Positions 5,670-47,929 of a stretch of DNA of 64,000 nucleotides are shown in pieces (the stretch's first letter is position 1; each line of letters opens with the position of its first letter). Under the pieces are notes generated by a model. It saw nothing but the letters and a program-made list of their open reading frames with translations, ran no database searches and had not been told where the DNA came from. A program made the position numbers and the translations under genes. Source of the stretch: the human T2T-CHM13v2.0 reference genome, Homo sapiens; NCBI RefSeq assembly GCF_009914755.1, contig NC_060933.1; one strand, written 5' to 3'.

Positions 5670-6894
5670 ACCCCCATGTACCACGCCGTGTACTCTGGGG
5701 CTGGGGAGCCCTGGGGAGGCTGAAGCACTTACAGAAGCTTCCCTGGGGCACCAGAGCTCGGTGAGGGTGGAGATAAGTTAGTTTAAAAAATGCAGCCAGA
5801 CAGAGCACGTGGAGGCACGAGTGGTGCCAGCTTTGCCCTCTCTCGGGCCTGCCAGTCAAGACCCCTGCCCTCTGAGTGCTTGCTGCGCATGGGCTGGAAC
5901 CAGGTGCCCACGTGCATGATGTCTGGCCCCTGGGGGCTGCGCATTGCTTCCTCTTTGGGACTGCGGAGAAAGCAGAAGTTCAGAGAGGACCTCCAGCTAG
6001 TAGGGAAGAGAGAAGGAATTTGCAGGCAGCTCTGTGTAACTGCAGAGCCCAGGCTAGCCCCTGCCGTCTATCAGAGAAGCGGAGTGGTGACTGATGTCTG
6101 CTGGGAGCCACAGCTCCCTCATCCCCATTGCTGCAGATGTTTGGGAAATTCTGCTCGCAGCTCTCCCTGGGGGCCCACATGCACAGTGGCTAAAAACTCT
6201 GAGAAGTCCTGCATGGAAGAAATCTGCAGCCCCTTGCCCACCCAGTGCTTCCCAAACTTCCGCCACCACAGAGCGGCACCCATAACCCTCCACCCCTGGT
6301 CTAGGGCTCCGCAGACACACATTTTGAAAAGCGCTGCCCTTTAGAGAGCTGGGGGCAGGACGTGAGCTGATGGGAGTGGGAGGCGAACTCATGTCTCTCC
6401 TCTGCCTGCAGGGTCCATCCCAGGCAGGAGTGGATGGTCCCTGGGGGTCAGATGTGGCGCTGGGCTGCTGTGAGGGGCTGCAGTCAGGCTGTCCAGATGC
6501 CGGGGACCCCAGGGCCACCCTTTCCCTTCTCTGCCCCTGTTTTCTCCTCTGTAAATGGCAGGAGAAGCTGTGCCTGCTTGGTAGGGCTGTTGGGGGATGC
6601 CAGCACCTGGCGCAGGGAGACCCTTGACCATTGGCAGCTGTTGGGGCCCTGCAGGCGGGGGCTCAGGCTTGCTGGTCTGAGAGGTCTGAGTAGGGCGGGA
6701 TCCTTAGGGGAGGCAGGCCTTGTTGCTGCGGGGGTGTCCTGCCCTGCGCTAGGCCTGGTGAGAAGAGGTCCCCAACAGGCACGTGGCCTGGCCCTGTTGG
6801 AGCTTCGGGCTGGTTGGGTGGAAGAACCAGCTCTAAGCAGATGATTTCTGGATTTGAGCCATTCAGGTTCTGGGAGCTGGGGAAACTCATTTAG

Positions 6895-27432: not shown

Positions 27433-28136
27433 CCATTTTTTTTTTTTTCAATCCTAAAAATTAGTTCTGACTTTAGAATAGAGATTCTGAATATTTTTAA
27501 GGCATTATTATATAGTTGAAAAATAAGGTCAAGATCAGATTAAGCTTTGATAGTCCAAGTTAGCAAAAATACTAATAATGCCTCTACATGGATTTCCTTG
27601 AATCTTGTCCTGTGTTTTACTGATATTGAAAGTGTTTTTTATGTTGCTGTGCTTAATTTTATTTAAAACGTTTTTTCTCTGTTTTTTTAATTTAAGGAAA
27701 GCCATGCTATTAAACAAACAAACAAACCTATGAGCTAAGCTCTCGGGTTATATTTGAAAATAAAAAGTGTTTCCTGGACTGAAAGAGCTCATAAGCTAAT
27801 TGAGGAAATACACATATAAATAACTCGAATGAAGGAATTAGGTAAAAAAAATGAGATTCTTCCTGTTTGCACATCTTCATGCCTTAACAACAACCAAAAA
27901 AATCTGCACACACACAACCACAGGAAAAAGGAAGTCCTCTTGCAGTCTTCTTATCTCATCATGTACTTGATTACACAAACTAGAAATCTAACGTTCCTCA
28001 ACCCTCGCCCCCAAATCTAGTCTGCCCCATGATAGTTGATGTGACCACTTTACACTGGTTTTTCCATCGACTTTCCTAGAGCAGCTGCCATCACCACCAA
28101 CACCAGTGCCAGCTTCTTAATCCACATCATTGCTTA

Positions 28137-28906
<770 letters not shown>

Positions 28907-30469: not shown

Positions 30470-31402
<933 letters not shown>

Positions 31403-31864
31403 TTAGAAAAAATGGGCAAATTCCTTGAAAGACAGTTACCAAAGCTCATTCAAGAAAAAATAGATGGTACCATATAAATTAAAGAAATTAAATTTGTTGT
31501 TAAAAACCTAACAACAATACAAACTCTGGGCCTAGACGACTTTCCTTGTGAATTCTACCAATACTTAAGAAAGAATTAATGCCAACTCTACACTATCTCT
31601 TCCAGAAAATGGAAGAGGAGGGAACAATTACCAACCCTTTTTATGAGGCCAACATTACATTGATATCAAAACCAGACATTGCAAAAAAAAAAAAAAAAAA
31701 GAAAAAGAAAGCTATAGAGCAATATTCCCCATGAGCAAAGACACGTAAATCCTCAATAAAATACCAGCAAATCAAATCCAGCAATATATGAAAAGGATAA
31801 CACATCTGACCAATGAGGTTTATGCAAGGATGCAAGTCTGGTTCAACATTCAAAAAACAATCAG

Positions 31865-37859: not shown

Positions 37860-38460
37860 AATTTAAGACTTTTATTTACCTTGAACTACTCAGCCAAGCA
37901 GACACATTATTTAGGAACTAGAATAAAAAGCCATTCACTTTACTTCAATTGACCATTTAGTTCAATTTGTGTGTTACTGCAGGTAATTACTCCAGTAATA
38001 ACACGCGGTAATCGGCGCTGATTGGGAGCCGGCCCCGGCTCTGTATTAATACCGCGTGCCATATATACTAATTATCCGTGTGTTACCATGGTTATTTGCA
38101 TGGACGCCGTGTTAACGACACCCTGGAAACACAAAGCAATAGCGAGTTTTGAATTAAATCTTTGTGTTCTCTTAGAGCTAAAAGTGCATTTCACATAAAA
38201 TAATCATGAATAAAATGAGATCATCTTGGCGGAGTTGCCAGGAAGCTGATTAACTGAACTGCGTAAATGTGACTTTATCCCACTCAAGAATTAGAGCCTC
38301 CCAAACGTTGTCGGGGTTGCTAGGCAACCCCCCGAGATGACATCACTCACACAAGCCACGCTGCGGCGATGTCATCTCTACATATTTATAGCGCCTCTGC
38401 AGAGAGGGTGTGCATTATGGAAATGACATGATTTTTCTCCCGGTTGATGGGTATGAATGG
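37860..38460. promoter_or_regulatory. Candidate deeply conserved enhancer/structured element with RFX X-box, octamer and nested palindromes
   Basis: GTTGCTAGGCAAC 38316-38328; ATTTGCAT 38094-38101; many TAAT cores; CpGs retained in an AT-rich island. Conservation not verified. Confidence 0.65.
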
Positions 38461-39510
38461 CCGTCAGACCTCTGAGGGCTGTGGAGAAAGAGAATTTGGG
38501 AATACCTGTGTGACACTTTCCTGGGGTGTGACAGATGCTTTATTTCCACCAGGTTACCCTAATGGGTCCAAATGAAAAGGCGTGTGTCACAGCTGATGAG
38601 TCGTCTGAGAGCTTGGTCAGTGGAGGCCGCCATCTTCCTGCCTGTGCACAGCAGCTGCACATGTGCCCAGGTCTCCCAGGAGACCTGGGACGCTCCCCCA
38701 GCTGGGGAGAGCCCCCACCCCTGCACTACGATGGGCCCCGGCTCCCTGCTCTGGCCCTGAACTCATACCAGGGGAAAACCCAAAGCAGGGACACAGCTGG
38801 CTTGAGTGATGCTGAGCACCCCGTCATGGGAGACATTCGAGAAGAAGCTGGATGACTAGAGCAGAGAGGAAGGGGAGGGTGGGAGGTCGAAGGTTAGGGC
38901 TCTGCATTCGTGTCTCAGTGCCCACCCTGAGCCAGGCTGGACACACAGCTGAGGCCTCTGAAGAGTTTGGGACCATGAGGAGTGAGGCTTACCAGGGGCA
39001 TGTGGAGAAGGCCTACGCAGTGCCTGAGGATGAGGCAGTGCTTCCTACAGGGGCTTGAGAAAGGGCATGGCTGGAGCTCAGGCCTCCTGAGCCGGAGAGG
39101 GACTCGGGATTTGCTGGGGAGCTGCAGCTCGGTCTTCCCTGAACCCCAGCCTCCTCTGGCTGCAGCATGAAGAGGGATTAGGGGTAGGGATAAGAATCAA
39201 AAGGCAGCCGGGGGGAAATCTAAGTTTGGGGTCAGGATGGCTTCAGAGCAGCTCTCATCCGCCCTGTCAACTTCCCTGTGTGCGGGCTCATTCCTGGCCA
39301 CCCCCAGCCAAGCTGGCCCGCCAACCCCACAACACCCCACAGCTATTTCTCTTTATAGACTCCTCTTCCTCAGTCCCTGTAGAAACGAATCTGGCATAAA
39401 AGAAGTCTCGCCAAGGTCTCCAGCAACCTCTGTGTTGCCAAACCTACTCTATTCTCCAGCAGCCCTGTACTGCTTTCTTCTGGTGCCTTCTGGGGGCCCC
39501 CACCCCATCA

Positions 39511-40182
39511 GTCCTCCCCACGTGTCCTCCCCACCTGTCCTCTCCACCCGTCTCCCCCTCCGTCCTCCCCACCTGTCCTCCTCACCTGTCCTCCCTACTG
39601 GTCCTCCCCCCATCCTCCCCACCTGTCCTCCCCACCTGTCCTCCCCATCGGTCCTCCGTACCAGTCCTCCCCCATCCTCTCCAGCTGTCCTCCCCACGTG
39701 TCCTCCCCACCTGTCCTCTCCACCCGTCTCCCCCTCCGTCCTCCCCACCTGTCCTCCTCACCTGTCCTCCCTACTGGTCCTCCCCCCATCCTCCCCACCT
39801 GTCCTCCCCACCTGTCCTCCCCACCGGTCCTCCGTACCAGTCCTCCCCCATCCTCTCCAGCTGTCCTCCCCACGTGTCCTCCCCACCTGTCCTCTCCACC
39901 CGTCTCCCCCTCCGTCCTCCCCACCTGTCCTCCTCACCTGTCCTCCCTACTGGTCCTCCCCCCATCCTCTCCACCTGTCCTCCCCACCTGTCCTCCCCAC
40001 CTGTCCTCCCCACCGGTCCTCCGTACCGGTCCTCCCCCCATCCTCTCCAGCTGTCCTCCCCACCTGTCCTCTCCACCTGTCCTCCCCACCTGTCCTCCCT
40101 ACCTACCTGTCTTCTCCACCGATCCTCCCCACCATCCTCCCCACCTGTCCTCCCCACTGGTCCTCCCTACCGGTCCTCCCAC
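39511..40182. repeat. 13-bp minisatellite (gtcctccccacct) with 176-bp higher-order repeat
   Basis: Marker gtcctccccacgtg at 39511, 39687, 39863 (period 176). Confidence 0.95.
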
Positions 40183-40189
40183 TACATAA

Positions 40190-40623
<434 letters not shown>

Positions 40624-41239
40624 GACAGTCCAGTCCCTTTAAATGCCATTCCTATGGTGATAGCCCCACATGCGTCTACCCAGCTCTGACCTCTCTGATC
40701 TCCATCCTGCGATCCTCTGACCTCCACCCTGCGATCCAGATGTTTGTCCGCCCACTCAGCACCTCAGCGTCTCAACAGCTTACAGGCTGAATCGGACAAT
40801 TGCCAACAGCTCACAGCAGCACGTCCATGCCGGAAACCTGACCTCCCCCGTCTTCCCATTCCTTAAATAGCCCCCATTCTCCATCTGGCTCTGCCAACCC
40901 CGTGACACCCTCCTGGGCACCCTGCCACACTGTGTTCTGCCAGGTTCCCTGGGTCCAGCGTGTAGCTCATTCCCACCCCAGGGCCTTTGTACTCGCCATT
41001 CCCTAACCTGTAATGCCCGCCCTGCACCGAGCTATTCTCAGGGTCCCCACCCTCACTGTATTCAGCCTCAGCTCATGTGTCCCCTCCTCAGGGTCCTGCC
41101 CTCCCCCACACCTGCTCCCCACTGTTCCCAGTCCCTTACTTGTTCGATTTGCTGTGTAGAAACTATATTCATGTTCACTAATGAGTTGTCAGTTTCCCTT
41201 CCTGGAATTGGAAGCTCCACTAAACCAGTGGAGCATTGA

Positions 41240-41408
41240 GCATCAAAAGAGGTCTCACCAAGGTCTCCAGTGACCTCTGTGTTGCCAAACCCACTCCATT
41301 CTCGAGGGGCACTGTACTGCCTTCTCCTCATCCCTTCCGGGAGCAACCCCTCCCCACCACCACTGCCGTCCTCCCAACCTGTCTTCCCAACACACCAGGG
41401 GCCGCACG
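41240..41408 (+). repeat. Local direct duplicate of 39394-40199 without the minisatellite expansion
   Basis: ~83% identity by hand over the first ~105 bp; both flanks of the VNTR are present. Confidence 0.85.
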
Positions 41409-42573
41409 ATGAACAAGATGGTGCTCCATCTTGTTTACGTCTAGGTTCAAGGTGAGTTGTTGAATGAGTGAGAAACTGGAGCTGGTGGACACAGGTGAGA
41501 CATCCAGCGTGGCTTGGGGACATTTGGGGGACGGCAACGTGTTGGGACATTGTCTCCTGAAGCAGGACAAAGACCCTTTGTCCCCAGCTTTGGTGAGATG
41601 ATTCGAGTGCTTAGTGACTCAGTGACTTACCTGAGAGTTGGCGGGTCAGGGGGTGGCGCTGTCACTGGCACAGGAAAGGAGGACGGTGTAGGGCATGAGG
41701 AGTGGCCTCTGCGTCCACGGAGCCTGTGCTTTCCGACTGCAGGAAGAGCGACGCAGAGCTGAGGCGTGGGCAAGAGCTCCTGAGGCTGGGCTGGGTGGGC
41801 ATTCCCTGGGAAAGAACTTTCTGAGCTGGGGATGTGAAGGATGCACCACAAGGGGTGGGTCCTGGGCCCTGGAAGCCTCCAGGGGAAACGTCCCTGTCCC
41901 TGTCCCTGAGCTGAGGCCCAGCTGCCTGGGAGCTCAGGGAGACTGGCTACCCAGCATGCTGCCTGGAGGAGGAGTGGCAGGGCTGCCTTGTGGGGCTGGG
42001 GGCTCAGCCAAGCATGCGTGATGGCTGCAGAGAATTTCTACTGGTCCCCTTCCAGGATTGGGTCTCCCGGCGTGGGTTTTGAGAAAAACGAATCTGACTC
42101 TGGGGCTCAGGCCCAAGGTGTCAGGGCTCACGGCCCCGTACAGCGGGGCGCCCGGGGCTGAGGATTGTTTGGTGGGGGGTGCACTGATCAGTTCTTGTCC
42201 CCTGGTGACTGTGCCCCTGGCCAGCGACCTGGCCTCCCTGAGCCCTGGAGTAGGGTCTCACTTCAAATGCTGGCCGGAGCCTGCTGCCACTGAGTGCTTT
42301 AAGCAGCAGTCAGAGAGGTGGGGGCGGGGCACAGAGGCAGGGAAGACCCCCACTCGATGTATGCCAGGGTGCACACTAATGGGCCTAGAGACGAGGATCC
42401 CAGGTTCCCATGGACAAAATGGTGGCCATCTCCTGGCGCCCCTGAGCTGCCGGCAGTGGAGACGGTGGGTGGCCCCTACACCAGCCTTTCTTCATGAGGC
42501 ATTTCCAGTCTCTCCTGCCCTTGAGCAAGTTCCAGTGAACACGTGTTGCTTGCTAGGACCTGGATCCCCTGGT

Positions 42574-42607
42574 CCTAACTCTAACCCTAACCCTAACCCT
42601 AACCCTA
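42574..42607 (-). repeat. Short interstitial telomeric repeat (CCCTAA)~5.5
   Basis: cctaactctaaccctaaccctaaccctaacccta. Confidence 0.85.
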
Positions 42608-43849
42608 CAGCAAGTCCAGCCCAAGTCTAGTCCAAGCCCAGGGAGCCATCTGAGGACTAACAGAGTGGCCAATTCTTACAGACACTCAAGGAAACCAACC
42701 ACATCTCCAGATGCCGACTGCAATCGCCAGGACTGCCTAAAATGAAGGACATTTACACACTCGGAGAGGGGCAGCTGCGTGGACTCAGGGTGCAGAACTG
42801 CTCATCAAACTTATTGTTTGAGCATCGGCGGGGGAAGACTTTGTCATCAACAGAGCCCAGGCTGGGGAGGGGGCTTGTGAGTCCCTGGTACAAACCTCAT
42901 CTCCGAGAGGCCCCGGGAATGGAGGCTGGTGGCTGGGGTTCCAGGCTGTCCGCTGTGACCATGGCCCTGGCGCTGAAGGGCCACAGCCCCCAGGGTGGCC
43001 CCAGTTGCTGCCTCCGCCGCAGAGGCTCCCCAGCAGCCAGAATGAGCACCCCCAGTGGATTTGGAAACCGAGTCTCAGTGCCCTCCCAGTTTCTTCATCA
43101 TGTCACCCATGAACACATTGCAATCATCATTCATGGGGCCAAAATGCTCTGCTGGGGTCAAAGCAGCCCCAGCAAATGCTGACTCTCCGCTTTCCTTTGT
43201 CTCCTTTAGACACAGCCAGAACACTCTCTGCCAACTCTCTTCTGAAAACCTGTTTGGGAAATTATTTGGCAAGGGAAGTCTTGGCACACACTGGGGGACA
43301 AGCAGGGCGAAGAGCTCAGAACCTCGGCTCCCAGGTCCACAGCAACTGGGTGTGTTACTCGGGCCCTGGACCTCCCACACCAGTGTGGCAGGGTCTCTAC
43401 GCACTAGAGGGGCCCCCGAGGGACCTCTCCTGGCCACGTTGGAGCCAGTTCGTCCCGCTGGTTGGAGATTTCCAGTTCCCCTCTGAGTTCTGGCCCATCA
43501 GCCTTTCTGCCACAAACCAACCCAACCACGTGGACGGTGTGTGGCCAACTAGGCCGCAGCTCCACGGAGGCCTCCCTTGCTGGGGGTGCTGGGGCTGGAG
43601 CTGCCTGAACTTGGCAGGGCTAGGCCCATGGGGCCCTATGGATTAGCAGAAGTGAGCCAGAGCCGCTGCCCAGCGGCCTCCAAGGCTGCAGGGGGTGGGG
43701 GGCTGAGACTCGGGTTGGTGGCTGGAGAGAAGTCCAGGCGGTGGAGCCGGGAGCCAGGGGCTCACCCTTCTCCTCAGGAGGAGAGCTCGGGTGGCTTGTG
43801 CCGAGAGGTGGGGTGCTGGGGCATTCCCTGAGCTCCATGCCACTGCCTT

Positions 43850-43990
43850 ACTTATTGTGCCTCACTGAAAACATACCACATCCTCGTAGCATAGGCACCC
43901 ATTTTACAGATGGGGAAACTGAGGCCAAGAGATGCCATCACTTATGAGCTGCTCATCAGCAGAGTCTGGCCTCCAGATCTAACGCCTCCT
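43850..43990 (-). mobile_element. MIR fragment
   Basis: cccattttacagatggggaaactgaggcc MIR core. Confidence 0.75.
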
Positions 43991-45464
43991 CCCTGGCCTT
44001 TTAGCTGCTGTGGAGAAAGAAGGCAGAGGGTAGCCCACAGGGGAGGCCCCAAGAGAGGAGTGATGGCGACTCAGGGCTGGGAGATGGGGCTGCCATTGGA
44101 GGCACCCTGGAGTGGAAAGGAGGGTTGAGGTCAGAACGGGGAGGGTGTAAGTCTCTCCCACCCTCCCTGCCCCCCTGCACCTGAGGCTTGCTCTTCCCTG
44201 CTCCTACCCCCAAGAGCTTCACCCAAGCCTTGCACTCCTGCCCTCACTGGCTTCATACCCCAAGTCCACCTGGCTGGGGTTGTGGAGGAGGCCACATGGC
44301 ACGGCCACTGTGGGCAGCAATGTCATTGTCCTTCCAGGACCCTTAGAAGCCACAATCCCACTGCCCTCTGGCCTGGCAAGGGTGTGACTGCCCCCAGCCC
44401 CTGCAAAGGGGATGACATGTCTCATTTGTTGCTGTTGGCACCATGGCAGGAATTGTCAAGGGTGACTTATTCAGGACCAAATGCACAGCCCAGTGGATGC
44501 TGCCAAGACCTTGCATTCATCTGCTGATTGGAGGCGGTGGCGTTTAAGACCCACTTTATAAATCACGCCTGTGTGCACATGGGGGATGATTAAAAACCCC
44601 ACAGGGCTTTGAACAACCATGAATACATAGGGCAAGGGCAGCTGGTGCCCTTGCAGATTGGTGGAGGATGTGCCCTCTGGGGTGGGCGAGGGGCAGTGTT
44701 TGCAGCTGTAATAGTCTTCAGGGGCTTTCTGTCCTATGACCTTTGTTGAGCACCTACTATGTGTCAGGTATCACGAGAGCCAGTGTGGGGTGGTGTCAAA
44801 ACCTGGGGCTCAAACTCCAGGGCTGCCTCTAGCTCCCAAGTAATCAAACTCAAGTAATTTCACCTGTTTGGGCCTCATTCTCCTAACCAAGGGAGACCAT
44901 CTGACTCACCAGTAGGAGTTATGAGGGGAGGTGTAGATAGAGCAGCCGGCTCAGCCAGGCCCTGGGGAGCATGTGGTAAAGGGAATTCCCTCACCTCCTG
45001 GCCCCCATTTCCTCCCTTCTTGGGCCAGTGGAGCATGTGAGAACCTGGTCTCTGCCTCAACTACAGGGTGGTCCCTCTGCAACTCCAGGAGTGGCCTGGT
45101 AGGTCAGCATTTTTCACTACCTACTGCATGCAGGTTGTGTGCAACATGCTGGGAACAAGAACGAGGAGGATACACAGATAAGGGTTCTAGGGCTCATCGT
45201 CTCTGGGGACAGGGATTGAACCATCCAAGCCTTCTTGTAGAAGTGAGGGTGTCTGTGGTACTGAGTGAGGGGCCCCTGAGGGGATAAGGAGGGACATGGG
45301 ATGTGAGTAGTGGTAGACAGGGCCAGGTGGGGTGCCAATTTAACCCTTCATGCCTCAATATTCCCATCATGGAAAAGGGACCTTTCGTCACTTTCTAAAA
45401 AGGAACAGGAAGTAGTAGGAAAACCAGAAAGTGGAAGGTGGGACCTGTCTGACTTCAGGTCAGA

Positions 45465-45600
45465 CAGTAGCTCGGCTGCCTCTGCCTCCCCTAGTGGCAT
45501 CTGAGGGCGTCAGTGGAGTGCTGCTGTGTGTCCTCTGTCCACATGGCCCCTGCTGCTGGGCTGTCACTTGGCCCCTGCTGCTGGGCTGTCACTCAGCCCC
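45465..45600 (+). repeat. Left arm of inverted repeat (partner 46741-46851), with an internal 25-bp tandem duplication
   Basis: 92/103 identity to the reverse complement of the partner, 29-bp perfect core. Confidence 0.92.
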
Positions 45601-45706
45601 TGCTGAGTGGGGTTGCTGTGAGAATTACAATATTGAAAAGCTTGTCCTCTGGGAAGAGCATTGTGCCCACTGGCTATTACCAGTGTGCATTTTGTTTTCC
45701 CTCATC

Positions 45707-45756
45707 CTGACCTCAGAGTGGGGCTGCCTGTTCTGACCTCAGAGTGGGGCTGCCTG
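45707..45756. repeat. 24-bp perfect direct repeat (ctgacctcagagtggggctgcctg) x2
   Basis: 45707-45730 and 45733-45756. Confidence 0.9.
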
Positions 45757-46740
45757 CTCCTGCCTGCCCAGGATGCTGATAAGGGGACACTCGGCTCAGG
45801 GAGTGGAAGCTTGGCCTGGAGGTTCCCAAGACTGGGACAAGAGGGTCTGATCCATCTGGGGAGGGGCCCTTCCTTCCAGAATCCCAGGGGAGGTCCAGGA
45901 GGGGCCAGTGGAGAACAGAGCAGAGCCAAGAGAGAGCAAAGGTTCCCAGGCAGTTTCCCTCAGGGAGCCCACCTGGTTTCCAGCTGGCTCCATCCACTGG
46001 TTCTGGACTATGTGGGCGGGAGGAGCCCAACAGAAGGGGCTCAGGCTGGGAGAAGACTCAGCCCCGGGACAGAATCCTAGGCCTGGGGGAGGGGAAGCAG
46101 TGACAGGGCCATCCTATCTGAATTCTCCCCACCCTCATCTCCTAGGTCTGCTGGGCAATGCCTCCTGCACCTCTGGGGAGGGGTGGGGCAGTACAGGAAG
46201 ACCCCTCTCCCAACTTGGGAGAGTGATGGGCAGCCCCCAGCCCCGCCCCATATCCGTCAGCTCTTGGTTCAAGGCTGGGGTCAGCCTGAGGTCGCAATGC
46301 CTTTGTGTGTGTCTGTGAGGGGGTGGCCCCTCTGTGGGCCTTTCACGTGGCTGTAGACCCTGCTGGCTTTTCAGCCAGGGCCCTGGAGGGAAGGAGGGCT
46401 GTGAGCCCCCAGATGCTCCGACACGGCCCAGGCACTATTCATCAGAGCCGATTTGTCAAACGGGTTTGGAGGCAGCTGCAGACAGTGAGGGGAGGGCTGG
46501 CCTCATGGGCTCTGCCTGGGCAGGTGCTGGCCGAGAAGTGCCAGCCCCAGGAGCTGAGCAGGGTTTTGGGGTGGACAAGGTTTCTTGACTTTGGACTTGG
46601 GACACGTGGGAGAAGGGTCCTGGCCTGGCTGTCTTTACACAAGAGCCTGGGGCTTGAGTAGCAGAGGGGAGGCCCGCCAGGGGCTGTCCCATCCTGTGCA
46701 GTGTGGCCTGGGGTGAGTCACCTCGGTTTCCATTGGAAGA

Positions 46741-46851
46741 GGGGCTGCGTGATAGCCCAACAGCAGGGGCCTTGTGGACAGGGGACACACAGCAGTGCTC
46801 CATTGACGCCCTCAGATGCCACTAGGGGAGGCGGAGGTGGCTGAGCTACTG
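46741..46851 (-). repeat. Right arm of inverted repeat (partner 45465-45600)
   Basis: Manual reverse complement and alignment. Confidence 0.92.
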
Positions 46852-47929
46852 GAGATGGGGAGACTGAGGCCCCAGTGGGAGCTCAGGTGGGGGGGGTCCC
46901 TTTGTCCTGTGAGAGCCCCTCCCCTCCCCAGCTGAGGCCCCAGCCTCCTTATCACAGGTTGTACCCAGGGTCACCTGGGGTGGGGATTTCTTTGTCCCTT
47001 TGGGGTCCTCAGGCTCTGTTGTCAGGGAGCCAGCATGGACGGATGGCCCGTCGTAGGGGGCAGGTGGCCTGAAGCCAGTGAGGACAGACAGACGGACAGC
47101 AGCACACCAGAGCTCCTGCCCAGCCACCCTGCCCTCGTGCCAGCCTCCCTCACTTCCCTAACTCCTGATTTTTCATCAAAACAGCACACAGGCTTTCAGC
47201 CTGTCCAAGGTCACGGGGCTGCAAGGGGAGCTGAATGAGGCCATTACATTGGCTTCTAATGTCCCTGTGGCCGCAGCTCAAAAGCTGCCTCGATCAAGCA
47301 CCCGGGACATTCCAATTTCCGCCTGTCCCGAAGCGATCGTATCAGGGCCTGAGTGATCTCCTCGCTGGCGGGCAGCGGAGATGCAAGGGCAGGCAGTCGG
47401 CCAGGAGCCCCCACCCACAAGGCCACCCCTGAGCCCAGCCATCCCCTCCCTCGGGAACAAAGGGAGTCTCGGGCCATGGCCGACAGGGCTGAGAAACAGC
47501 TGCATGCTGCCCGTAATCGTCTCCCTGAGTCCCACTCAGGCCCTGTGCTGGGGTTGGGCTCAGCTCATCACTAGCTGGCACCCTGTCATTCCATTCTTTT
47601 TCCCCTGGAGGGGCTGGGGGAAGGCAGGAGCAGCCCTCACATGCCACCCATGTGGGGAGGCGAGGGGGCTCAACGGCTCAGGGGCTCAGAGGGGCAGCAG
47701 CCCTCCTCGGGCGTCCTCAAGACCGCAGGCCTCTGTCACTCCCTTATAAACGGCCCAGGGTTCTAGGGAGTTGGCTGCAGCTGGGCCTCATAGCAGCCCC
47801 CAGCCTGCCAACTTTGGGCAGGAGCTTGGAGCCAGATGGCCTGGGGTTGAGAATGTGCTGGTGCCTGGGGGTCCCTGAGCCTCACCCCCGGGGATCTCCA
47901 TGATCGCCCGGATGTCAGCGCACAGCCGC

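What the first reader, a model, noticed from the sequence alone, without database searches (positions are those of the whole stretch)
41214..45609. Recurrent architecture: hairpin - locally templated copy - hairpin (cluster of fossil break-repair scars)
Seen: two separate inserts within 4.4 kb, each copied from DNA 1-2 kb away and each bracketed at both junctions by a perfect short stem-loop. Insert 1 (41240-41408) has left gctccact-aaacc-agtggagc (41214-41234, 8-bp stem) and right aacaagatgg-tgct-ccatcttgtt (41412-41435, 10 bp). Insert 2 (45465-45600) has left ctgtctgac-ttcag-gtcagacag (45445-45467, 9 bp) and right cactcagc-ccct-gctgagtg (45590-45609, 8 bp). Short iterated copies sit in or beside them (gagcat x2, a 25-bp tandem, a 24-bp tandem at 45707). 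Roughly, a perfect 8-bp stem with a short loop is expected once per several kb, so four of four junctions is unlikely by chance. Established: fold-back priming, iterative synthesis and templated insertions are signatures of polymerase theta-mediated end joining / synthesis-dependent MMEJ. Inference: these are fixed germline repair scars, and the double-hairpin bracket may be a genome-wide searchable class.
Basis: partly seen in the sequence, partly recalled or inferred. Interest (0 to 1): 0.8.

Follow-up and report, generated by a model that had tools for sequence, protein, structure and literature searches.

The report
Two hairpin-bracketed templated insertion scars
Two old insertions in a non-coding stretch of human chromosome 9 are each a copy of DNA 1-2 kb away with a short perfect stem-loop at both edges, which is best read as the scar of error-prone break or replication repair of a known kind, not a new mechanism.

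Summary
All four perfect stem-loops sit at the stated coordinates. Only 14 such hairpins (stem >=8, loop 3-6) occur in the 64 kb, and four of them lie at the four edges of the two derived copies (chance about 1e-7 window-wide, 1e-5 at local density). None lies at the source ends.

Both inserts are true local duplicates: in the whole genome each matches only itself and its neighbour. Insert 1 (41240-41407) is a direct copy of 39394-39547 plus 40136-40199. It interrupts the tail of an L2-like LINE, and some L2 sequence is lost there. Insert 2 (45465-45600) is an inverted copy of 46740-46851 with an iterated 25-nt unit. The new hairpin arms are reverse complements of the adjacent DNA and are absent from the sources. 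At the one junction that could be checked (hairpin 1L), the new arm is also absent from related L2 tails.

The best reading is two independent, ancient events (K 0.21 and 0.14) of serial template switching: snap-back copying, then a 110-170 nt copy from a distant template.

Attribution to polymerase theta is not supported. The copies are far longer, and their templates far more distant, than published theta inserts. A small pilot (314 kb) found no further example, so a genome-wide class is untested. No outgroup genomes were available.

The parts
39394..39547 (+). Source of Insert 1, left part; it runs into the first units of the 13-nt minisatellite
   Evidence: (D5), 3, 8, 17: 122 of 149 aligned columns identical to 41240-41391
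39500..40190 (+). 13-nt-unit minisatellite with a 176-nt higher-order period, inside the source. The insert holds only a few units, so the array expanded after the copy was made (or the copy contracted)
   Evidence: D1-D4; D2 copies 97% and 91% alike
40136..40199 (+). Source of Insert 1, right end (last minisatellite units plus unique sequence)
   Evidence: 47 of 57 aligned columns identical to 41349-41407; weak on its own (E 0.94)
40957..41230 (+). Host of Insert 1: 3' tail of an L2-like LINE, left flank
   Evidence: L010, E 2.9e-8; profile, 40959-41066, E 2e-6; L023: 41154-41223 maps to L2 positions -150..-79
41214..41234 (.). Hairpin 1L: GCTCCACT-AAACC-AGTGGAGC. The outer arm is L2-derived; the inner arm is a new reverse complement of it
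   Evidence: -9.8 kcal/mol, 0 of 200 shuffles as stable. In the L2 tails, 'gctcca' is followed by g/a-rich sequence, not by the reverse complement
41235..41242 (+). Short iterated filler (second 'gagcat') between the hairpin and the copy
   Evidence: no other template found within +/-13 kb above the null
41240..41407 (+). Insert 1: direct copy of 39394-39547 plus 40136-40199
   Evidence: only 2 places in the genome
41406..41440 (.). Hairpin 1R: perfect core AACAAGATGG-TGCT-CCATCTTGTT (41412-41435), extending to 15 pairs with one G-T pair and one bulge
   Evidence: -10.8 kcal/mol, 0 of 200 shuffles as stable
41457..41471 (+). L2 terminal motif TTGTTGAATGAGTGA: the host element resumes to the right of the insert
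   Evidence: 14 of 15 to the profile; collinear with the left flank; the 24-nt form of the motif has 180 exact genome copies against 0 for the control
45445..45467 (.). Hairpin 2L: CTGTCTGAC-TTCAG-GTCAGACAG. Its last 3 nt (CAG) are the first 3 nt of the copy
   Evidence: -11.1 kcal/mol, 2 of 200 shuffles as stable
45465..45600 (+). Insert 2: inverted copy of 46740-46851. A 25-nt unit is iterated (45540-45564, 45565-45589) and a third partial start follows (45590-45601)
   Evidence: (I1, I2, D10)
45590..45609 (.). Hairpin 2R: CACTCAGC-CCCT-GCTGAGTG. The left arm is part of the copy; the right arm is a new reverse complement of it
   Evidence: not unusual thermodynamically (30 of 200 shuffles as stable)
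46740..46851 (-). Source of Insert 2
   Evidence: no hairpin at its ends
45707..45758 (+). 26-nt tandem duplication 100 nt to the right of Insert 2; a link to the event is not shown
   Evidence: D9, 96%

Best explanation
These are two independent, ancient germline scars of one known kind of event. A broken end or a stalled nascent strand was repaired by serial template switching of a 3' end.

Proposed steps in each event:
1. The 3' end first folded back on the DNA next to it and copied 8-16 nt. This snap-back step makes the stem-loop.
2. [quoted passage not shown]
3. It copied 110-170 nt there. In Insert 2 it slipped back twice by 25 nt.
4. It made or met a second short fold-back copy and rejoined the other side.

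At Insert 1 about 16-58 nt of the host L2 tail was lost.

Shown: the copies, their uniqueness in the genome, the interruption of L2, the non-random position of the hairpins, and the absence of the new arms from the sources. At hairpin 1L the new arm is also absent from related L2 tails.

Inferred: that the hairpins were made in the same event as the copies, the order of the steps, and the pathway. The pathway is MMBIR/FoSTeS-like or synthesis-dependent MMEJ. The long tract was more likely made by a processive polymerase such as Pol delta than by Pol theta alone.
For: Local duplicates. Each insert has 2 genome matches only.

Insert 1 splits an L2-like tail. The left flank matches at E 2.9e-8 and 2e-6, and the terminal motif lies to the right. 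The mapping to L023 leaves L2 positions -78..-21 unaccounted for.

Hairpin positions. Hairpins lie at 4 of 4 edges of the derived copies, 0 of 5 source-end positions and 0 of 20 ends of other local pairs. The background is 1.8%.

Origin of the arms. The arms are not in the sources, and the source junctions are unstructured (z -0.7 to +0.2). At 1L the outer arm matches L2 tails while the inner arm does not. Hairpin 1R extends to 15 imperfect pairs, as expected for an old, longer inverted copy that has decayed.

Switch points. The CAG overlap at the 2L/copy switch and the 25-nt iterations fit re-priming.

Literature passages read. Snap-back synthesis gives reverse-complement inserts that become part of longer inverted repeats (PMC5728401, PMC5068794 S7 legend, PMC4912351). 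Germline templated insertions can copy from up to five templates in forward and reverse direction (PMC8421209). Localized non-tandem duplications occur in both orientations, some with a target deletion: 26 same-strand, 21 opposite-strand and 6+6 with deletion, out of 166 (PMC5829575).
Against: No outgroup allele was seen, so it is not shown that the hairpins arose together with the inserts.

If the stems are as old as the copies and were never longer, all four staying perfect has a joint probability of only about 0.002.

Microhomology at the switches cannot be judged at 12-19% divergence.

For Insert 2 the host context (a MIR-like SINE) is not significant (E 0.1-3.2). Which copy is derived therefore rests on the iterations and hairpins alone.

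Hairpin 2R is not more stable than shuffles. Part of its new arm could also be read as a third start of the iterated unit.

There are only two cases, and the pilot found no third.
Confidence: 0.6

Rival explanations
1. Polymerase-theta-mediated end joining made the whole of each insert. Theta did the snap-back copying, the iterations and the long copy.
For: Snap-back copying, templated extension in trans and switching between modes are documented for Pol theta (PMC4912351 passages). Reiterated priming and template switching, with a deletion at the site, are typical of theta scars (PMC5068794 passages). Insert 1 shows loss of L2 sequence.
Against: Published theta inserts are short (average about 10 bp, median 7 bp in vitro, typically up to about 30 nt), and about 85% are primed within 10 bp of the break (PMC5068794, PMC4912351, PMC11724301 passages). 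Here the tracts are 112-168 nt, copied from 1.2-1.8 kb away. In C. elegans snap-back is a minor part of such inserts (PMC5068794, S7 legend; the figure itself was not seen). Fold-back inserts of 5-34 bp arise in yeast, which lacks POLQ, through Pol delta plus end joining (PMC11724301).
Confidence: 0.12
2. The hairpins are unrelated to the insertion events. They arose later by short-range template-switch mutation or correction of near-palindromes, or by chance.
For: Short template switches create perfect inverted repeats and can keep them perfect without selection (PMC5453318 passages; PMC8794818 abstract). Four perfect stems are unexpectedly well kept for their presumed age (joint 0.002). Perfect hairpins are in excess in this window generally (14 against 3.7 expected).
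Against: Later events have no reason to fall exactly on the four junctions (P 1e-5 to 1e-7). No source end has one. With the four removed, the other ten hairpins do not cluster significantly (P 0.12). Hairpin 1R shows decay beyond its core.
Confidence: 0.15
3. The hairpin-forming sequences existed first and caused the breaks, as fragile secondary structures. The insertions landed there for that reason.
For: Inverted repeats stall forks and attract breaks (general knowledge). Secondary-structure-forming sequences steer repair outcomes (PMC5728401).
Against: A break in one palindrome would leave one arm on each side, not two complete hairpins. The inner arm of 1L is absent from related L2 tails. 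The template arm of 2R lies inside the newly copied DNA, so it cannot predate the insert.
Confidence: 0.05
4. The inserts are independent copies of a dispersed repeat, or free DNA fragments captured at a break by ordinary end joining.
For: The source of Insert 1 seems to lie in the same old LINE (from recall only). Insert 2 and its source carry weak MIR-like stretches. Capture of fragments at breaks is known (PMC11724301 introduction).
Against: Only two genome places match each insert, at 78-88% identity. Independent copies of these old families scarcely align here. Fragment capture does not explain reverse-complement arms at the junctions or the 25-nt iterations.
Confidence: 0.05

Closest known systems
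Snap-back synthesis-dependent MMEJ (SD-MMEJ; Yu & McVey 2010 PMC2943611, listing and abstract start only; Khodaverdian et al. 2017 PMC5728401, passages)
   Same: A resected 3' end folds back on a short inverted repeat and copies its own strand. The insert becomes part of a longer inverted repeat at the junction. The nascent end then pairs elsewhere to finish the repair.
   Different: Described for inserts of a few to tens of nt at induced breaks in Drosophila. Here snap-back arms stand on both sides of a further 110-170-nt copy from a template 1-2 kb away.
Polymerase-theta templated insertions (van Schendel et al. 2016 PMC5068794; Kent et al. 2016 PMC4912351; passages)
   Same: Deletion plus templated insert, reiterated priming, template switching, and copying both in cis (snap-back) and in trans.
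   Different: Those inserts average about 10 bp, and their templates mostly lie within 10 bp of the break. The main tracts here are more than ten times longer and far more distant.
MMBIR-type templated insertions in the human germline (Osia et al. 2021 PMC8421209, passages)
   Same: Fixed or polymorphic germline insertions copied from nearby templates in forward and reverse direction, from up to five templates per event.
   Different: That catalogue used inserts >=25 bp, so the 8-16-nt arms here would fall below its threshold. The word 'hairpin' does not occur in its main text.
Localized non-tandem duplications in human DNA (Frith & Khan 2018 PMC5829575, passages)
   Same: A duplicated segment inserted nearby in either orientation, sometimes with a deletion at the target. 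This was the second most frequent local rearrangement in that survey.
   Different: Junction fine structure is not described there: 'hairpin' and 'palindrom' each have 0 occurrences in its main text. Its supplements were not read.
Short-range template-switch mutations, four-point model (Loytynoja & Goldman 2017 PMC5453318, passages)
   Same: A short fragment copied in reverse complement from adjacent sequence makes a new perfect inverted repeat or hairpin in one step.
   Different: That model covers a single there-and-back switch within tens of bp. Here such copies flank a long copy from a distant site.
Fold-back inverted insertions at yeast breaks (PMC11724301, abstract and passages)
   Same: Inverted copies of 5-34 bp of break-adjacent DNA, made by fold-back priming and then joined to the other end.
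   Different: In yeast one end only is involved, using Pol delta plus NHEJ. Those inserts are not combined with a distant templated tract in one product, as far as the passages read show.

Membership tests
Snap-back SD-MMEJ / TMEJ templated insertion | Junctional insert is the reverse complement of DNA immediately next to it | tested here: met
   All 4 hairpins are perfect inverted copies with 4-5 nt loops. The new arms are absent from the sources, and for 1L from L2 tails.
Snap-back SD-MMEJ / TMEJ templated insertion | Insert short (about <=30-35 nt) and templated within tens of bp of the break | tested here: not met
   Met by the 8-16-nt arms only. The main tracts are 112-168 nt, copied from 1.2-1.8 kb away, against the values in PMC5068794 and PMC11724301.
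Snap-back SD-MMEJ / TMEJ templated insertion | Deletion at the repaired site | tested here: met
   Insert 1: L2 positions between about -78 and -21 are missing by the L023 mapping, or at least about 16 nt by eye. Insert 2: not testable, because the host is not established.
Snap-back SD-MMEJ / TMEJ templated insertion | Microhomology at each switch point | tested here: inconclusive
   A 3-nt CAG overlap lies at the 2L/copy switch, and 'gcat' at the left switch of Insert 1. With 12-19% divergence since the events this cannot be scored.
Snap-back SD-MMEJ / TMEJ templated insertion | Dependence on POLQ | not testable with these tools
   Needs genetics.
MMBIR/FoSTeS-type complex templated insertion | Insert copied from nearby sequence, either orientation | tested here: met
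   Insert 1 is direct and Insert 2 inverted; the sources lie 1.2-1.8 kb away.
MMBIR/FoSTeS-type complex templated insertion | Several template switches within one event | tested here: inconclusive
   Each insert is made of 3 or more differently templated pieces (arm, copy, iteration, arm). That they arose in one event is inferred from their position, not shown.
Short-range template-switch mutation (four-point model) | Change explained by a reverse-complement copy of adjacent sequence relative to the ancestral state | not testable with these tools
   The pattern is present, but no sister or outgroup genome is held here.
Dispersed repeat / transposon insertion | Many genomic copies; family-typical ends | tested here: not met
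   Only 2 genome places per insert. No Rfam family lies at the hairpins; the only sizeable hits in 38-48 kb are the Alu at 40340-40622. The search tool skips very common words, so old diverged relatives can be missed.

The most novel reading that the evidence does not exclude
A 'double snap-back bracket' may be a distinct, recurrent germline signature. Both sides of a break would self-prime on adjacent DNA before a long tract is copied from a template kilobases away. The resulting stems would then stay perfect for tens of millions of years because near-palindromes are continually re-corrected by short template switches. That would make such scars self-maintaining and searchable genome-wide.
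Probability: 0.1. Interest if true: 0.6.

Novelty: new member of a known kind. Interest (0 to 1): 0.35.

Why it matters
The two sites are clean natural examples in which fold-back copying and long-range templated copying are joined in one fixed human germline product. If many more exist, junction hairpins would offer a simple mark for telling the derived copy from the source. They would also help separate template-switch repair from other routes to small dispersed duplications, and help measure how long perfect inverted repeats last. As it stands this is two cases of known mechanisms in non-coding DNA, with no sign of function.

Tried and rejected
L2 profile attempts. MAFFT with local pairs timed out. 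The first profiles were contaminated by Alu insertions in the fetched loci and hit Alus instead. A cleaned profile reached only 40959-41066.

MIR host for Insert 2. A profile from 26 genomic MIR cores found 8 window hits, none in 45-47 kb. A first sub-search returned nothing. Relaxed searches and local alignments gave only weak, collinear matches. I leave this as a lead.

Whole-genome search with the L2 flank found only itself.

Other templates for the filler pieces (45380-45464, 41222-41245, 41400-41425, 45595-45615) within 30-56 kb: nothing above the shuffled null. This includes the 'ccagtggagcattgag' match at 45025-45041, which scored 26 against a null maximum of 28.

PRDM9-type motif CCNCCNTNNCCNC (recalled): 24 window matches against 7.4 expected, but none in the minisatellite or at the junctions, and several lie in Alus.

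Close hairpin pair at 31494/31597: it lies in what looks like an old L1 coding fragment (recalled) and has no local copy between the hairpins.

P-nucleotide-type palindromes from opened hairpin ends were rejected because those have no loop.

Helitron-type or TIR transposon ends were rejected because the inserts are local copies.

The self-BLAST without dust masking timed out.

The wider pilot scan was limited to 314 kb because no more genome sequence could be fetched.


Full report
**1. What is there**

The four perfect stem-loops are:
- 41214-41234: GCTCCACT/AAACC/AGTGGAGC
- 41412-41435: AACAAGATGG/TGCT/CCATCTTGTT
- 45445-45467: CTGTCTGAC/TTCAG/GTCAGACAG
- 45590-45609: CACTCAGC/CCCT/GCTGAGTG

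Between the first two lies a direct copy of DNA about 1.8 kb upstream. Region 41240-41391 aligns to 39394-39547 with 122 of 149 aligned columns identical. The tail 41349-41407 aligns to 40136-40199 with 47 of 57 identical (also D5).

Between the last two lies an inverted copy of DNA 1.16 kb downstream. Region 45465-45576 aligns to 46851-46740 with 98 of 112 identical (I1, 5, 17).

The 25-nt tandem (45540-45589, 96%) and the doubled 'gagcat' are present. The tandem at 45707-45758 has a 26-nt unit, not 24 (D9, D10).

The source of Insert 1 now contains a 13-nt-unit minisatellite of about 690 nt with a 176-nt higher-order period (D1-D4). The insert holds only a few units. So the array grew after the copy was made, or the copy shrank.

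**2. Are the copies local duplicates or members of a dispersed family?**

Searching the whole assembly with each insert gave two places only, the insert and its neighbour: 78% identity for Insert 1 and 88% for Insert 2. The tool skips very common words and misses old diverged repeats. Even so, independent copies of the old families present here barely align to one another. Identity of 78-88% therefore marks real local duplication.

**3. Which copy is derived, and what was there before?**

No outgroup genome is available, so I used related repeat copies as a stand-in for the ancestral sequence.

A 24-nt tail motif (recalled as the L2 LINE 3' end) has 180 exact genome copies against 0 for the reversed control. 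I fetched 30 of these loci.
- One of them (L010) aligns to window 40957-41230 at E 2.9e-8.
- A profile built from them hits 40959-41066 at E 2e-6.
- To the right of the insert, the terminal motif TTGTTGAATGAGTGA lies at 41457-41471, 14 of 15 to the profile and collinear with the left flank.
- Against the best single relative (L023), the left flank 41154-41223 maps to tail positions -150..-79 and the right flank 41430-41471 to -20..+23 (z 3.8 and 2.9).

Insert 1 therefore interrupts an L2-like tail, and roughly 16-58 nt of that tail is missing.

In the tails printed, the copies that keep 'gctcc(a/t)' continue with g/a-rich sequence. None continues with the reverse complement. So the outer arm of hairpin 1L is ancestral and the inner arm is new. 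For hairpin 1R the origin of the outer arm is not settled.

A 6-nt direct repeat, GCTCCA, stands at 41214-41219 and at 41423-41428. It may mark the return point to the original template. This is suggestive only.

For Insert 2 I suspected a MIR-like SINE as host. The matches are weak. The left flank scored 28 against shuffles of 20.0 +/- 3.1. The right flank scored 32 against 18.7 +/- 2.5. By nhmmer the E-values were 0.1-3.2. Its polarity therefore rests on the iterated unit and the hairpins.

**4. Is the position of the hairpins more than chance?**

- The 64 kb holds 14 perfect hairpins with stem >=8 and loop 3-6. Sixty shuffles that keep local composition give 3.7 +/- 1.8, with a maximum of 8.
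- Only 1.8% of window positions lie within 30 nt of one, and 5.6% in 36-49 kb. I took the junctions from BLAST endpoints, not from the hairpins.
- With those junctions, 4 of 4 edges of the derived copies are within 30 nt. This gives P about 1e-7 at window density and 1e-5 at local density.
- At a 10-nt limit, 2 of 4 BLAST edges and 4 of 4 extended-alignment edges qualify.
- Looser hairpin definitions give 1e-4 to 1e-6.
- None of the 5 source-end positions tested is near a hairpin. The source junctions fold no better than shuffles.
- Nine of the 14 hairpins lie in 38.3-46.3 kb. Once the four are removed, the remainder do not cluster significantly (P 0.12).

**5. Fine structure**

Hairpin 1R extends beyond its perfect 10 bp to 15 pairs with one G-T pair and one bulge. 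This fits an originally longer inverted copy that has since decayed.

In Insert 2 the copy begins with the CAG that ends hairpin 2L.

The source itself contains two similar stretches, cacaaggcccct and cacgcagcccct. The insert reads cacatggcccct...cacttggcccct...cactcagcccct. This is the pattern of a nascent end slipping back and re-priming.

In hairpin 2R the template arm lies inside the new copy. That hairpin was therefore made after the copy. A single strand growing left to right explains all of Insert 2: fold-back, distant copy, two slips, fold-back, rejoin. Insert 1 needs a fold-back on each side of the break.

These orders are inference. No alternative nearby template for any filler piece rose above the null.

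**6. Age**

Jukes-Cantor distances between the copies are 0.207 for Insert 1 and 0.137 for Insert 2. At 1.0-2.2e-9 substitutions per site per year (rates from general knowledge), this is roughly 47-104 Myr and 31-68 Myr. These are upper bounds if the copying itself was error-prone.

The two events are therefore separate, not one cluster.

One point counts against a simple story. If the stems are that old and were never longer, the chance that all four stayed perfect is about 0.002. The last is a published process (PMC5453318 passages; PMC8794818 abstract).

**7. How general is it?**

Only 80 kb more of the genome could be fetched. Together with the 56 three-kb loci this gave 313,526 nt.

In that sample, 7 low-copy non-tandem local pairs were found. 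The two pairs of this finding have hairpins at all 4 derived edges. The other 5 pairs have 0 of 20 ends within 30 nt of a hairpin. No stem of 6 or more lies within 40 nt of the 15 junction positions inspected.

Those five are a poor control set:
- one has a third copy on another chromosome;
- one looks like two SINE copies;
- one flanks an Alu.

The claim of a genome-wide class is therefore untested, not refuted.

**8. Comparison with what is known**

For all papers below I read passages found by term search, or the abstract where stated.
- Snap-back synthesis at break ends gives reverse-complement inserts that become part of longer inverted repeats (PMC5728401). Pol theta does this in vitro and in cells and alternates with copying in trans (PMC4912351).
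- Theta-type inserts average about 10 bp, about 85% are primed within 10 bp of the break, and snap-back is a minor share (PMC5068794).
- Theta alone typically gives up to about 30 nt, and it is reported to be dispensable for templated insertions at Cas9 breaks. In yeast, fold-back inserts of 5-34 bp need Pol delta and end joining (PMC11724301).
- Human germline templated insertions can copy from up to five templates in both directions (PMC8421209).
- Localized non-tandem duplications in either orientation, with or without a target deletion, are the second most common local rearrangement (PMC5829575).
- Short template switches create hairpins in one step (PMC5453318).

Every component here is therefore known.

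I did not find a description of fold-back arms on both sides of a long, distantly templated tract. In one search, 10 papers holding at least 4 of 5 terms were listed (of 11 found), and none says this in its title or abstract start. 'Hairpin' has 0 occurrences in the main texts of PMC5829575 and PMC8421209. Supplements were not read, and subscription journals are not covered.

**9. Verdict**

The best explanation is two independent fossil scars of serial template switching with fold-back copying at the junctions (confidence 0.6). This is a new instance of a known kind.

Attribution to polymerase theta alone is unlikely, given the tract length and the template distance.

There is no sign of function. 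Rfam finds only Alu-related matches in 38-48 kb and nothing at the hairpins. The decisive test is the outgroup alignment.

Noticed in passing
window 39500-40190: A C-rich 13-nt-unit minisatellite (about 53 units) with a 176-nt higher-order repeat whose copies are 91-97% alike. The old copy of this region in Insert 1 holds only a few units, which implies a much later expansion of the array.
   Followed up: partly
window 41214-41219 and 41423-41428: The same 6-mer, GCTCCA, stands at the left edge of hairpin 1L and just inside hairpin 1R, so it brackets the whole 200-nt insertion as a direct repeat. [quoted passage not shown]
   Followed up: no
window 38313-38331, 38666-38689, 41565-41583, 44632-44654, 46205-46223: Five further perfect 8-10-bp hairpins in the same 8 kb. 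The window as a whole has 14 against 3.7 expected from shuffles. Without the four junction hairpins the local clustering is not significant (P 0.12).
   Followed up: partly
window 27929-28155 and 30939-31173: An inverted pair, 237 nt at 83% identity and 2.8 kb apart, abutting Alu elements. A third copy lies on another chromosome (75%). No junction hairpins. Probably a low-copy repeat or part of a larger inverted segment.
   Followed up: partly
L059:558-628 and 960-1032: A 71-73-nt direct duplication (89%) lies immediately on either side of an Alu with its A-rich tail. That is far longer than a usual target-site duplication.
   Followed up: no
L067 (G000:C9:146496001-146506000), about 6242-6492: An 84-nt copy (94%) of DNA 3 kb upstream is directly followed by a 164-nt inverted match (76%) to DNA 1.5 kb downstream. 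The second match has a SINE-core-like sequence, so it may be two independent SINE copies and not a double templated insert.
   Followed up: partly
window 42575-42606: A short run of telomere-like repeats (ctaaccctaaccctaaccctaaccctaaccct) stands in the middle of unique sequence, about 4 Mb from the chromosome end.
   Followed up: no
window 46819-46882: The right part of the source of Insert 2 gives weak matches (E 0.03-0.5) to several Alu elements of the window. This may be chance or an old monomer fragment.
   Followed up: no
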